Source of the DNA: Tubiluchus corallicola
Taxonomy: Eukaryota; Animalia; Priapulida
Direction of reading: 5' to 3'
NCBI GenBank assembly: GCA_030141605.1
Contig: JAQGDQ010000711.1
Location: 44,789 to 108,788 of the forward strand
Length of the DNA stretch: 64,000 bases
Part shown: one piece after another, positions 18,559 to 28,430 of the stretch
Numbering within the stretch: position 1 is the first letter of the stretch
How the letters are laid out: every line of letters begins with the position of its first letter
The notes under the pieces: model-generated
The model's input: only the letters and a program-made list of their open reading frames with translations
Told to the model about the DNA's origin: nothing
Database searches by the model: none
Made by a program: the position numbers and the translations under genes

Positions 18559-18715
18559 GTATCAAGACTTACTTCATTGTCCCAAAGAAAGAACAGATTA
18601 CTGAGTTGGAGATTTCACCTCACGAGGTCTCACACGGGATGCAGTCACAAGTGTCTACACCTGGCGAGCAGTCTTGCATTTCAGATAATACATCTTCCAA
18701 TGGCGGACCAGGAAT
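18559..18715 (+). CDS. ADCY9: Adenylyl cyclase 9-like internal exon (end of C1a, start of C1b)
   Basis: ttttcag acceptor and gtgagt donor. Translates (G)IKTYFIVPKKEQITELEIS..., matching the G-L-K-T-Y-L-I end of AC9 C1a. Ends in phase 2, compatible with the exon at 28283. Confidence 0.75.
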
Positions 18716-18819
18716 GTGAGTAGTTTCCCTTTTTGTTTTAGTTTTGTCGATCTTTGTCTGTTAGTTTTTCTCTCCCTCTCTCCCTCGTTTGATTTCCTAC
18801 ATCTCTTCCTCCATCCTTG

Positions 18820-19295
18820 CCTCTCTCTTTCTCGCTGTCTCTCTCTCTCTCTCTCTCTCTCTCTCTCTCTCTCTCTCTCTCTCTCTCTCTCTCTCTCTCT
18901 CTCTCTCTCTCTCTTCTCTCTCCCTCTCTCCCTCCTTCCTTGCCTCTTTCTTTCTCGCTGTCTCACTCTCTCTCTCTCTCTCTCTCTCTCACTCACTCAC
19001 TCACTCACTCTCTCACTCTCTTCTCTCTCTCTCTCTCTCTCACACACACACACTCTCTCTCTCTCTCACTCTCTCTCTCTCTCTGTCTCTCCCTCTCTCT
19101 CTCTCTCTGGCTCTCTCTCTCTCTTTCTCTCTCTCTCTCTCTCTCTGGCTCTCTCTCTCTCTCTCTCTCTCCCTCTCTCTCTCTCTCTCTCTCTCTCTCT
19201 CTCTCTCTCTCTCTCTCTCTCTCTCTCTCTCTCTCTCTCTCTCTCTCTCTCTCTCTCTCTCTCTCTCTCTCTCTCCCCTCTCACTTTCTCTCTCA
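18820..19295. repeat. Long (CT)n microsatellite
   Basis: Direct reading. Confidence 0.97.
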
Positions 19296-20689
19296 TACAC
19301 GCACATCATTACCATTTCTATTACTTTCTTTTGATCAAAGTCTTGTGTGCGTTTTCATCTTGTTCTTGTTGACTGTATCGAATGCTTTGTCACAAGAGCA
19401 CTACTATTGCATTAAAGTTGAAAAGTGAAACGTTCCAGGCTTCCATTGACCATTATAGTAGCTATTTAAATATTTATGCGAATCCAGTAATTAAGCTGTT
19501 TGGGTTTGGCTGGTGCTGCGTTCCATGCTAGTCCGCGTTCGTTGTTCTCGTTCCGTTTGTGTAGATTTTAGTGCGGATAATTCGGACAACTGGAGACGGG
19601 ACAACTTTTAATTTAGCAAAAAACGTACTTATTCCTTGTTACTGTTTACTTCTACAACAGCTGTTGTTGTTACCGTTGCTTTGTTCAAAGCAAGAAGGAA
19701 CATTCTGGATTTGTGGTGACATCTTTTTCCTTATATTTTCACTTTTTAAAGGCTTGCATTTTCTCGTAAAAGAAACTGTAAACGACATGTTGTGGATATC
19801 TAATTTGAGTAGGATGTTTACTCATTTTATTGCTTTTTTTCTTGAATATGCAATAAATAACTGAATAAAAATGCATATGGATAAAATGAAAACGGAAGTG
19901 AGGCTGTGAAGTTGGTGTTGTTCGTTATAAAAACAAAATGTCTCTACAAATTTGTCTATTTTATGTTAATTTATTACTTGGCATATATCCAATAAATTAA
20001 AATCTAGTATGAATTCAATTACATAATGCATAATCTAGATTCTTTTAGACATTTTTCTGTATACATATATATATATATATATATATATGTATCTTTAAAA
20101 CCAAGGGTAGTTTACAAACTGCAAGTAATAAGCTTGCCGAACCTCGACTTCTGCCACAGTGAAAGAGTTGCTTTTTTTGTTTGCCTTTACACTTCTTCAC
20201 CAGTTTGATAAAATTTTTGGGCAATCTTATGTTTGCGTCAGTTTTGTTGCTTTTGTATGCCTCGTCTACAACGTCTACAAGAGCGCTTACACAGTTAACA
20301 GATAATTCTGGAGTAGTTTGTGTTGTTGTGTTTCTATGGTCGCTTTATGAGAATTATGAGTCTGTAAGAATTCTTCAAATTAAGGTAAGTGAAGTTTGCT
20401 TTGTGTTAGTTAACTTTGTTGTGTTGTTTATCATATTTACTTACATTTTAAATACTATTTTTTGCATTGACCTAATAGTCAAGATCTTAGGCTTTAAAAA
20501 TTACAGCAAAAATCGCAAGTTTAGAAGCTTTCCTTCATAACAGATAGCTGAAATGATTAAGGTGGTTACTAGAATACTAAACTAACTTCGCATTCTTAAT
20601 TTAGTTATTCAGATCAAGAACGAATTCTGATTTCTTTGAAATTTAAAAGGCATGCAACAGTGTTTTCTACATGAACTCTAAAACTGGGA

Positions 20690-20830
20690 ATGAATTTTCC
20701 AACTCCCCACGCAATTTAAATACATTAACCCTAACCCTATCCTTAACCCTAAACCAAGCCTAACCTCAACCCAAACCTAATCTGCTTCACGAACTAATTT
20801 CTTGTTTATGGGGAATTGTAAACTTCAGCC
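20690..20830 (+). mobile_element. Short element with (TAACCC)n-like core
   Basis: taaccctaaccct...gcttcacgaactaatttcttgtttatggggaattgtaaactt is shared with 7653-7790 (reverse complement) and 31520-31575. Confidence 0.55.
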
Positions 20831-20929
20831 TAAAATTGCACTCAAGGTTTATTCTCAAAATCTTTTGTAATTATACTAGTGCCAGCAAGATCTGTCCGAC
20901 ATGTATTTTCTTCTCCGTATTTATAACAG

Positions 20930-25545: not shown

Positions 25546-25636
25546 GTGTTAAGGCCAGTTGCCATGATAAGGCCAGTTGCCGTGTTAAGGCCAGTTTCCA
25601 TGATAAGGCCAGTTTCCATGATAAGGCCAGTTGCCA
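25546..25636. repeat. Short tandem repeat (aaggccagttgccatgat-like, about 18 bp), 5-6 copies
   Basis: Direct reading. Confidence 0.8.
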
Positions 25637-27732
25637 CTCGATTAAACAGCTACAGTTAGAAAAAAATGAATGCAACATTTCCTAATCAATATTCACATAC
25701 TGTAGAGGTATATGCCTTAGCTTAAGTAATCTTTACTATTCACTTCGTAAGCTACAGTTGCTTTTAAGCTCATCAAGTCAACCTTAAGCAAAAAATTATC
25801 AGCTTTGTGGCTTATAATTCAGCTTTCTATTAGAACTCTTGCTAAATCAAGCCGTAATTAGCTAAAGGATTGAGCATAAAGGCTTATTTCTGTAGCATTC
25901 ATTTAACAGGCGTTCATTGCTAGTTCTCCTCTTGTCTGATTTAATCCTTTCTGCCCCCGTAAAGGTTAATGAATTTATTTTAATCTGCGTAAGCCGTCAC
26001 CATGCGTCTCGTGGCTCGGAAAATGTGGCTTTTATGGCTTCGTGTGTTCACAGTTGAGCAACCGCTAAGCTTTTGGCCTGGCTTCTCGCGTTCACAGTTG
26101 AGCAACCGCTAAGCTTTTGGCCACACTTCCTAGAAATCGCGCGCGCTGTGAAATTACAGTTTGATGAAATTGAGTAAAATTCTCCCGCCCGCTGAAAGGC
26201 TAGCGTCTGATTATGGCTCGTGAAGCCATTGAATTCGCATGAATGGTAACACCTGCAAGAAACGCACTTTGTTTCTTTCCCTGGAATTCCGGGCGCTTTG
26301 CACGCAGCCTGGCGTGAACATTGAATGGAGTGTTAATTGGGGTAACATTTTTCATAGTTTAGCCTTCTTCATCAAACCGTAATGCTCCTTCGTTCAGCAT
26401 CATTTTAATGCTGATCCAACGAATCCAGTAGAGTTCATACTTCACGCGTATTTGTCCATACGGCAACGGTAATGGCAGCGATGGTTTGTAGTTCAGAGTA
26501 TTATCGATATGTTTAATTTAAACTGAATTACTGAATACATACTGTTAGAGCCATTAAATAGATATTAAAATTGTGAAAAGATTCAAATAAAATTTGTCAG
26601 AAAAAATGCAAATTGAAACAAAATTGTGTGTCCTTCTGTTACATCAGCATATATTTCTCAGTTTCTCGAGTTTAATTGAGTCGTGTAGATCTACTTGAGG
26701 TACATCTTTTTGATATTTTCTTTTAATTTTCGGTATCATTTTTATGTGGCAATACATCGTGAATTCCACGAGTAACAGTCTTGTGAAACAATAAACATTT
26801 TTAACTCGATTTATGTGTTTATAATCGTTATTTATTTAAAGTGGATTAACAAAACAGATGTAACAGATACAAGTCTCTCCAGTGCAGATGGAAGTGAGTC
26901 AGTGCATTAAACACCAGTGCTAATTTAACGATCAATAAGATTTTAAAGCAAATAACTTCAATTAGGCATACATATTTCAATTAGGCACAATATATAAGTC
27001 ACCTGGGCATTAGACAATGCAGTAAATCATCGCAATTAAGCAATACGCGAATTCACGTGAAAGAAAGTGTAAGCTCTAATCTGCAAGAACAACATAAATA
27101 TTGTACTCATTCTTCAGTTAGTAAAGTTACTTGACTTAGACTTTACGAAAATTTGCACAATTTTGAACTATGGTAAGTAGAAGCTCACTATTGCAAGATT
27201 TCAGTAAATTCCTCATCGAATTACACGTAAATTTATGGCTAAAATTTACAATTTGCTCATGGCTAATGAAATTGCTACAAAGTCATTATTAACTTATTGA
27301 AATATTGTGTTCATTTCTATAATGTGTACATTCAAAAAAGTAATATACATAATTTTCAATGGATCTGTTACGAGAACATACTGAACTAACTGTTAGGTTG
27401 TGAGTTAACAAATCAGAATTTCGCTTGCTTTTCAGAAAATGTGCAGAAGTTGATGTAACTGTTGTGTAGAACTTTTTGAATAAAAAACCAACATAAAGTG
27501 TTTATTTGGTATTTTTATCGTAATTCCGCATTCATTGTGTTAAGTCAGTTGTTTGCTCCGTATTCGTGCTAGCAGTGGCTCATATTCTCATGTCTGAGTG
27601 ATAATGACAACATGTGTTGTAGTTTTGAAACTTAACAGACAACTTTTTTGACTTTTGTCTAACGGTTTAGCTCTTTTTATATCATTTTGACAAGCTTTTT
27701 CACAATTCCAGTGATTGATTATGGTCGTGCAA

Positions 27733-28029
27733 AGGTCAAAGGTTAAGTGTACCAGTCAACTCATTTGCATACACTTGACAACGCCTTGAAGCCCATGCTA
27801 TTATAATATCAACAGTTTTAACAACTAGCTAGAACCTTACCTAGTTCATTTTTTCTTGTTTCCAAGCAATATCCTGCTGGTAAATACTCTATGAACAAAC
27901 TAAATTAAGTAATGTCCACGTAAAACAACATAAGTTACTGAACTGGTGTGGCAGACGGCTTTGCTTTATCCACGTCATGTGACGGTTGTAGTTAAGACGT
28001 GTTGCTGTGGCACACTTAACCTTTGACCT
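27733..28029 (+). mobile_element. Element of about 300 bp with inverted repeats aggtcaaaggttaagtgt / acacttaacctttgacct; inverted relative at about 48190-48570
   Basis: Perfect 18-bp inverted repeat. Internal catttgcatacacttgacaacgcc and ctagaaccttacctagttcattttttctt appear reverse-complemented near 48420-48550. Confidence 0.7.
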
Positions 28030-28282
28030 ACAGCAACTGTGTGTGCTCACAATGAAACTGTGAAAAGGTTTTTTAATGAGATTTTGCTATACACTAAGAA
28101 ACTTTTTGATAGTTCTGACAATATTCTGTTTGATAGACTTCAAACTGATGTAATTTTCAAAGGTCGTTTCGCAGCTTAAACGTTCACAGTTATGTTGCTG
28201 TTATCTTGCTCTTGGCAGAGGCTTGTCTAATTAAACTGAGTTTTGATTTCAAATAGTTACATGAATTTTTGTTTTTTTACAG

Positions 28283-28430
28283 CCCAGTGAAAGCTTCAGA
28301 AAAGTCAACATCGTCATCAGGTGCAAAAAACAGCCCTACGACAAAAAACAGTCCACAGTTGACGAGTGTTAATGGTCGGGGCAGCTTCCGAGGTGCCAAA
28401 AGTCCTCTTGTCTCGCACGTTGACAGTCAG
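28283..28430 (+). CDS. ADCY9: Adenylyl cyclase 9-like internal exon (Ser/Thr-rich C1b linker)
   Basis: tttttttacag acceptor and cag|gtgaat donor. Phase 2 in, phase 0 out; open frame PVKASEKSTSSSGAKNSPTT...SHVDSQ joins 18715 to 33668 in frame. Confidence 0.7.

What the first reader, a model, noticed from the sequence alone, without database searches (positions are those of the whole stretch)
18559..28430. OTU-protease exons inside the ADCY9 intron can splice in frame: possible adenylyl cyclase-deubiquitinase fusion
Seen: the ADCY9 exon ending at 18715 leaves 'AT' (phase 2), and the next cyclase exon at 28283 starts in phase 2. Between them on the same strand are two exons with good splice sites, 20930-21499 (570 nt) and 21770-22003 (234 nt). 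Both are phase 2-2 and divisible by 3. The joins AT+G (Met), AG+G (Arg) and AG+C (Ser) give a stop-free frame that inserts 268 aa into the C1b linker. The first exon has an OTU Cys box (PADGLC) and His box (EDHFNY). Known: OTU domains are deubiquitinases with a Cys-His-Asp/Asn triad, and C1b is the variable regulatory linker of membrane cyclases. I know of no OTU-containing adenylyl cyclase. Inference: this is either a cassette giving a cyclase-DUB isoform, or a nested or transposon-borne OTU gene (Helitrons and Ginger elements can carry OTU domains) whose phases match by chance.
Basis: partly seen in the sequence, partly recalled or inferred. Interest (0 to 1): 0.82.

Follow-up and report, generated by a model that had tools for sequence, protein, structure and literature searches.

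The report
Deubiquitinase gene nested in cyclase intron
An invertebrate's adenylyl cyclase 9 gene holds, inside one intron, two open exons, the first predicted to fold as a ubiquitin-removing (OTU) enzyme; they would fit the cyclase's reading frame, but they are more likely a separate small gene of probable jumping-gene descent that the cyclase message would normally skip.

Summary
Both inner exons have AG/GT ends, are phase 2-2, and give a stop-free frame with or without inclusion. Exon 1 is a real OTU domain: Pfam 26.1 bits against a 23.3 cut-off, OTUD1/OTUD3/Otu2 fold, Cys/His/Asn intact. The fusion is unproven, since no RNA run was listed. Against it: direct splicing gives a normal linker (223 aa; relatives 134-386; inclusion 491); 0 of 120 cyclases carry OTU; both cassette donors are weak; the intron's strongest donor lies 545 nt upstream and suggests a first exon of its own, from which a 279-aa stand-alone protein can be spliced. 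Relatives' protein ends suggest phase 2-2 is a family trait, so the match needs only about 1-in-10 luck. The OTU exon lies on a single DNA contig, and no transposon ends were found. Three near-invariant family residues are changed, so activity may be weak. Exon 2 is unidentified; a hAT-transposase lead failed direct tests. Verdict: likely a nested, transposon-type OTU gene. A functional cyclase-OTU isoform has about a 17% chance, and one RNA experiment would decide.

The parts
18559..18715 (+). ADCY9 exon: end of C1a (KTYF motif) and start of the C1b linker; phase-2 donor
   Evidence: the motif lies at the same place in 35 of 40 sampled AC9 proteins; no significant profile hit of its own
19450..19620 (.). 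CpG-rich patch, candidate promoter or 5' end of the nested unit (inferred)
   Evidence: CpG observed/expected 1.17 in bin 19300-19599 against 0.4-0.7 in the following bins to 21400; limits read from the sequence; other CpG-rich bins exist further down the intron
20204..20384 (+). Candidate first exon of the nested unit. ATG at 20347; weak phase-2 donor after 20363 (in frame with OTU); the strongest donor of the intron after 20384 (OTU frame closed by TAA at 20365-20367). 5' limit uncertain (acceptors at 20160 or 20204)
20930..21499 (+). OTU exon, phase 2-2, 190 codons; Cys24, His148, Asn150 intact; family positions 88, 94, 95 changed; low-confidence Ser/Thr/acidic tail from residue 160
21770..22003 (+). 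Second exon, phase 2-2, 78 codons, family unresolved (hAT RNase-H-like only by embedding); read-through past the donor stops at TAA 22017-22019
28283..28430 (+). ADCY9 C1b exon, phase 2 to phase 0
33668..35442 (+). ADCY9 last large exon (TM7-12 and C2a); the window's frame changes near 35284
   Evidence: Pfam Guanylate_cyc E 1e-40; best named hits are AC9

Best explanation
The two exons are likely a self-contained small gene of probable transposon descent, nested on the same strand in a phase-2 intron of ADCY9, and the cyclase message would normally splice 18715 directly to 28283. Shown: an intact OTU exon, an open second exon, one DNA contig over the OTU exon. Inferred mechanism: a transcript starting near the CpG patch (about 19450-19620) uses its own first exon (ATG 20347, donor 20363), splices to the OTU exon and exon 2 and ends at TAA 22017, giving about 279 aa. 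The product would be a small OTU protein that binds, and perhaps weakly cleaves, ubiquitin conjugates. The fit to the cyclase frame is inherited: this OTU family seems to use phase 2-2 exons anyway, and frame-preserving passengers are the ones an essential host gene tolerates. Low-level leaky inclusion into ADCY9 is possible without being a selected function.
For: Skipping gives a KTYF-to-TM7 distance of 223 aa, inside the 134-386 range of 35 relatives; inclusion gives 491, above all 35. 0 of 120 AC9 proteins match the OTU profile (best E 0.83). The 12 relatives found among 1.84 billion representatives are 159-625 aa, with no cyclase domain in Pfam. The closest named one is a stand-alone 213-aa Patiria miniata gene model. 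In 4 of 7 unspliced relatives an R or S (what an AG acceptor in phase 2 reads as) sits right before the exon's first full codon (p about 0.01, post hoc), and 5 of the 6 closest end in K-stop, R-stop or R-Y, as a read-through phase-2 donor would (inferred from protein letters only). The best donor of the 9.5-kb intron (8.1) lies 545 nt upstream of the OTU acceptor, while the cassette donors score -0.6 and 1.3. A stop-free 279-codon stand-alone frame can be spliced. Frames intact over 804 nt with no second contig 80% or more alike over the OTU exon are unlikely under drift beyond about 5% divergence (P about 0.01 with indels, 0.24 without), which suggests some selection. OTU domains on Ginger1, Helitron and MULE elements are documented (PMC2836005, PMC9741609, PMC1702500; passages read).
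Against: The own start is weak: all 26 of 114 GT sites that reach an ATG in phase 2 score below 0. The 20363 donor (-0.9) is only as good as the OTU exon's own donor, and such a donor would often occur by chance. The strong 20384 donor puts a stop in the OTU frame, and the exon's first internal Met (34) lies after the catalytic Cys. Transposon descent is not shown here: no TIR with target duplication above chance (3 observed, 2-6 in shuffles), no transposase family in 124 intron ORFs, and exon 2 failed the hAT tests. The C1b-length argument is soft because C1b is variable and disordered. Relatives' DNA was not seen.
Confidence: 0.52

Rival explanations
1. Dead or dying remnant: a low-copy element inserted fairly recently, lost its ends or its start, and is drifting. 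It makes no useful protein.
For: 3 of 10 near-invariant family columns are changed (Y88C, D94Y, L95F) against 0-1 in each of 11 relatives (pooled Fisher p 0.018). These likely correspond to the aromatic and acidic residues that hold the ubiquitin tail in other OTUs (PMC7396840 passages; the mapping is my inference). There is a TAA six codons before the OTU acceptor join when the strongest donor is used. Donors are weak.
Against: Both frames, four splice sites and the Cys/His/Asn triad are intact. No close sibling contig was seen over the OTU exon in X1. A second run (X2) differs from the window at 9 of about 595 non-coding bases of the unit but at 0 of 256 bases in the two pieces over the exons (p 0.064, weak). 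The three changes cluster in one 8-residue stretch.
Confidence: 0.24
2. Functional cassette: ADCY9 includes both exons in some tissues and makes a membrane cyclase with an OTU domain in C1b, which would trim ubiquitin from itself or its partners.
For: Frame open for every inclusion pattern. The cyclase donor at 18715 (3.7) is the best-scoring phase-2 donor with an open coding frame upstream of the OTU exon. Intact frames suggest selection. C1b is isoform-specific, unresolved in cryo-EM and carries phosphorylation clusters (PMC13703280 passages), so it could tolerate an insert.
Against: No OTU in 120 AC9 proteins. Large exon with a weak donor. An upstream exon with a much stronger donor would break the frame if included. 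The phase match is explained by family exon structure. The ubiquitin-tail motif is likely degraded.
Confidence: 0.17
3. The exons belong to a longer overlapping gene with further small exons that I did not resolve (for example a 12-nt phase 2-2 candidate at 23797-23808 or a terminal exon from 24827).
For: Acceptor 24827 is the best internal acceptor of the intron (7.6), and the donor after 23808 scores 3.6. Three relatives run on to 329-625 aa.
Against: No Pfam family above cut-off in any other ORF of 32 aa or more in 19296-28282. The exon-pair scan at my thresholds returned no candidate (it also missed the two real exons because of their weak donors).
Confidence: 0.07

Closest known systems
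OTU deubiquitinases OTUD1, OTUD3 and yeast Otu2 (PF02338; PDB 4BOP, 4BOU, 7PL7)
   Same: Fold (VIA Z 15.0-15.3, rmsd 2.3-2.8 A over 133-138 residues; Foldseek E 9e-7), Cys box, His-aromatic-Asn
   Different: 14-21% identity; family Tyr88 and Asp94 replaced; sits as a symmetric exon in another gene's intron; activity untested
Patiria miniata LOC119720281 (XP_038045851.1) and 11 unnamed relatives
   Same: 22-37% identity, E 2e-22 to 6e-4; the closest share the domain plus an acidic Ser-rich tail and apparently the same exon limits
   Different: The Patiria model is a 213-aa stand-alone protein; the Tyr and Asp of the motif are kept in all aligned relatives; no match to exon 2 is evident in them; their genomic context was not seen
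Transposon-borne OTU domains: Ginger1 (PMC2836005), Helitron/Helentron (PMC9741609), Medicago MULE (PMC1702500)
   Same: Divergent OTU in an aquatic-invertebrate-type genome, intron-containing, outside the standard host OTU set (inferred)
   Different: No integrase, RepHel or MULE domain, no terminal repeats, no high copy number found here
Adenylyl cyclase 9 (ADCY9)
   Same: Last exon about 47-50% identical over nearly its full length to annelid, nemertean, mollusc, hemichordate and chelicerate AC9
   Different: None of the 120 listed carries an OTU domain; none is a close relative of this organism

Membership tests
OTU cysteine proteases (PF02338) | Profile score above the curated cut-off | tested here: met
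   26.1 bits against 23.3, E 1.3e-5, profile 1-119 of 128
OTU cysteine proteases (PF02338) | OTU fold | tested here: met
   AlphaFold2 model, mean pLDDT 80; best matches OTUD1, OTUD3, Otu2
OTU cysteine proteases (PF02338) | Catalytic Cys, His and the residue two after His (Asp/Asn) | tested here: met
   Cys24, His148, Asn150
OTU cysteine proteases (PF02338) | Conserved aromatic and acidic residues that hold the ubiquitin tail | tested here: inconclusive
   Family Tyr88 and Asp94 are Cys and Tyr here; their equivalence to the residues in PMC7396840 is inferred, as no residue-level alignment to a solved OTU covered this stretch
OTU cysteine proteases (PF02338) | Deubiquitinase activity | not testable with these tools
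   Needs an enzyme assay
Cassette exons of ADCY9 | Canonical splice sites and frame kept on inclusion | tested here: met
   donors weak
Cassette exons of ADCY9 | Junction reads linking them to cyclase exons | not testable with these tools
   No RNA holder listed; only contigs of runs not on record as RNA were laid
Cassette exons of ADCY9 | Insert kept in AC9 of related species | tested here: inconclusive
   0 of 120 AC9 proteins have OTU, but no close relative is among them
Ginger1 / Helitron / MULE elements with OTU | Transposase, integrase or RepHel domain beside the OTU | tested here: not met
   No such Pfam family in 124 of 124 ORFs of 32 aa or more in 19296-28282; short or very divergent exons could be missed
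Ginger1 / hAT / MULE cut-and-paste elements | Terminal inverted repeats with target-site duplication around the unit | tested here: not met
   3 candidates against 2-6 in five shuffles; one search listed only CT/AG-repeat arms among the 25 longest
Active transposon family | Dispersed similar copies | tested here: not met
   One contig over 20938-21574 at 80% likeness in X1, depth 165, like the unique part of the cyclase exon (166-208); contigs drop rare variants and depth is only a hint
hAT transposase (exon 2) | Match to the RNase-H catalytic core | tested here: inconclusive
   ESM Atlas top named hits ZBED1_RNase-like and DUF659 at 0.89-0.90, 158-160 shared features, under the 170 bar; no Pfam hit; 0 of 18 hAT ORFs align in the core, profile score equal to shuffles (one hAT subgroup only)

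The most novel reading that the evidence does not exclude
ADCY9 in this animal has exonised a transposon-type OTU module and makes, in some cells, a membrane adenylyl cyclase with a built-in deubiquitinase domain between its two halves, coupling cAMP output to ubiquitin control of the enzyme's own traffic or turnover. Nothing tested here excludes it.
Probability: 0.17. Interest if true: 0.8.

Novelty: new member of a known kind. Interest (0 to 1): 0.32.

Why it matters
On the most likely reading this is one more divergent, transposon-type OTU gene in an invertebrate intron: useful for annotation, since a gene finder could wrongly merge it into ADCY9, and as an example of a symmetric OTU exon that is ready to be exonised. 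If junction reads show regulated inclusion, it would be a cyclase architecture that my searches did not find in print or among 120 AC9 proteins, and a direct link between cAMP synthesis and ubiquitin editing. A single RT-PCR separates the two.

Tried and rejected
No whole genome is held for this window, so copy number rests on public DNA contigs. No RNA holder listed. Word-index searches for OTU relatives found none at 103-331 aa or at 771-2200 aa (weak evidence, and 332-770 aa was covered only). Searches for loci of OTU relatives found none in metagenome or viral contigs, nor for exon 2 in viral contigs, so relatives' splice sites were not seen as DNA. Exon 2 as a ubiquitin-like domain (my first impression): no PDB sequence hit, low-confidence helical model (pLDDT 60), no fold match at Z 5 or more; unsupported but not excluded. 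Exon 2 as a hAT core: of 120 loci fetched, 18 had an ORF with 330 aa or more before the motif, 6 of 6 checked were hAT by Pfam; exon 2 scored like its shuffles (86 of 150 and 80 of 300 shuffles scored as high; 4 ORFs lacking the core were left out). Hemizygous insertion: considered because the unit has half the depth of most of the last cyclase exon, rejected because the exon's first 500 bases have the same low depth and the deeper part carries a second, decaying sequence type. The hydrophobic ORF from ATG 20229 to donor 20384 is phase 0 and does not join the OTU frame. Paper searches with no hits; one search listed 7 papers, none on such a fusion by title or abstract start. Earlier notes by sequence, place and first word set gave nothing.
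Full report
Observation. Exons 20930-21499 and 21770-22003 have AG/GT ends, lengths divisible by three and phase 2 at both ends. 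The frame from 18559-18715 to 28283-28430 is open with neither, either or both included. The OTU frame is far beyond chance (0 of 300 shuffles reach 219 codons); exon 2's frame alone is not (82 of 300), but its GC, acceptor and language-model recognition value favour a real exon. On a rough matrix built from recalled generic frequencies the acceptors are good (4.4, 6.2) and the donors weak (-0.6, 1.3) compared with the cyclase sites.

Host gene. The exon from 33668 encodes TM7-12 and C2a (Pfam E 1e-40) and its best named relatives are AC9. The N-terminal half is not in the window. The exon at 18559 is placed by its KTYF motif. With direct splicing the distance from that motif to TM7 is 223 aa; in 35 of 40 sampled AC9 proteins (every third of 119; 5 lacked the motif pattern) it is 134-386; with both exons it would be 491. 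An OTU profile finds nothing in 120 of 120 cyclases (best E 0.83). None of these is a close relative, so this speaks against a widespread fusion, not a lineage-specific one.

Exon 1. It passes the Pfam OTU cut-off (26.1 against 23.3). The model (pLDDT 80) matches OTUD1, OTUD3 and Otu2. Asp21, Cys24, His148 and Asn150 are intact. A full scan of 1.84 billion representatives gave 12 relatives at 22-37% identity, 159-625 aa long, none with a cyclase domain. The only informative name is a stand-alone 213-aa Patiria miniata model. In an alignment with 11 of the 12 (P0130 left out) the window protein departs at 3 of 10 near-invariant columns (Y88C, D94Y, L95F) against 0-1 for each relative (p 0.018). 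By position these likely match the aromatic and acidic residues that secure the ubiquitin tail, whose mutation lowers or abolishes activity in other OTUs (PMC7396840, passages). That mapping is inferred. So the domain may be weak or inactive despite its triad.

Why the phases match. Most relatives are open frames called on unspliced DNA, so their ends hint at splice sites. In 4 of 7 with upstream residues, R or S stands right before the exon's first full codon, as in the window (p about 0.01, post hoc; P0121, a spliced model, and three that start inside the domain were left out). Five of the six closest end in K-stop, R-stop or R-Y within a short distance of the acidic tail. This suggests a phase 2-2 OTU exon is a family trait. 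I could not see their DNA. If so, landing on the same strand in a phase-2 intron has roughly a 1-in-10 chance (phase-2 share of about a fifth to a quarter is recalled), and frame-preserving passengers are favoured by survival.

Its own start and end. The strongest donor in the 9.5-kb intron is after 20384, 545 nt upstream of the OTU acceptor, and a CpG-rich patch lies further up. That donor leaves a TAA at 20365 in the OTU frame. A weak donor 21 nt earlier (20363) joins ATG 20347 in frame, and reading through exon 2's donor ends at TAA 22017: 279 codons without internal stop. Against this, all 26 of 114 GT sites that reach an ATG in phase 2 score below zero, so the cyclase donor remains the best-scoring coding partner. 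This is the main point that keeps the fusion alive.

Copy number and ends. Run X1 may be the source sample. It has a single contig over 20938-21574 at 80% likeness, depth 165, like the unique start of the last cyclase exon (166-208). Some extra short contig depth lies over 21848-22018 and was not identified. Depth is only a hint. No inverted repeat with target duplication stands above shuffles and no transposase family appears in 124 of 124 intron ORFs. A second run, X2, holds unspliced pieces of the unit, with 9 differences in about 595 non-coding bases and 0 in 256 bases over the exons (p 0.064; against the cyclase exon 12 of 1008, p 0.14). Simulated drift keeps both frames open in 14-54% of runs at 2% divergence and 1-24% at 5%. 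So the unit is either young or under some selection.

Exon 2. Unresolved. The ESM Atlas places it near hAT RNase-H clusters (0.89-0.90, under its own bar for shared features). Pfam, PDB sequence and fold searches gave nothing. Against 18 fetched hAT transposases it scored like its shuffles. I keep hAT only as a lead.

Mechanism. Most likely (0.52) a nested gene of probable transposon descent that ADCY9 skips; then a drifting remnant (0.24), a functional cyclase-OTU isoform (0.17), or part of a longer unresolved gene (0.07). Shown: exon anatomy, OTU fold, open frames, one contig. Inferred: own promoter and start, skipping, transposon origin, any activity.

Known context. OTU domains on Ginger1, Helitron and MULE elements are described (PMC2836005, PMC9741609, PMC1702500; passages only); PMC9741609 notes that transposon OTU domains had not been assayed. 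C1b of AC9 is isoform-specific and poorly ordered (PMC13703280, passages). PMC7690952 passages added nothing specific. Searches for a cyclase-OTU fusion, for ADCY9 C1b splicing and for hAT with OTU found no such paper; the library lacks most subscription papers, and supplements and Repbase were not seen. Earlier notes of this scan list 30 findings with OTU and transposon in at least 20 genomes; these are unchecked leads, and they show that many such loci are being sampled, so an occasional phase match is expected.

Verdict. Observation confirmed; OTU real; fusion untested and less likely than a nested gene. Interest 0.32; 0.8 if the fusion is shown.

Noticed in passing
window 35284-35290: The last ADCY9 exon changes frame near the end of C2a. 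Two contigs of X1 and one of X2 lack 2 bases at 35284, so the window's break may be an assembly error or come from a duplicate copy.
   Followed up: partly
window 34105-36600: About double contig depth and a second sequence type with a stop at 34880 and changes in conserved motifs: likely a decaying duplicate of the ADCY9 3' end somewhere in the genome.
   Followed up: partly
window 20700-20834: Short, very high-copy interspersed repeat with telomere-like TAACCC units and a sharp 3' end, about 100 nt before the OTU acceptor.
   Followed up: partly
window 23106-23582: TA-flanked element of about 480 nt with matching inverted ends; resembles a pogo/Tigger-type MITE (name recalled).
   Followed up: partly
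window 23797-23808: Possible 12-nt micro-exon, phase 2-2, donor 3.6 but acceptor only 0.2; it would also keep the ADCY9 frame.
   Followed up: no
window 20229-20384: 52-codon hydrophobic ORF from an ATG to the strongest donor, phase 0; looks like a signal peptide by eye but has no in-frame partner exon found.
   Followed up: partly
window 43390-44781: Intronless 463-codon ORF of the mandelate racemase/enolase superfamily (Pfam MR_MLE_C E 7e-57); ENOSF1-like by my recall.
   Followed up: no
window 59867-60094 and 61241-61564: Two ORFs with IQ calmodulin-binding motifs, probably repeated exons of one gene.
   Followed up: no
window 22019-22585: 57-nt minisatellite (10 copies) starts right at the stop codon reached by reading through exon 2.
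   Followed up: no
protein P0130: A distant relative has two OTU-like repeats preceded by a 2A-like ribosome-skipping motif (motif recalled, not tested).
   Followed up: no
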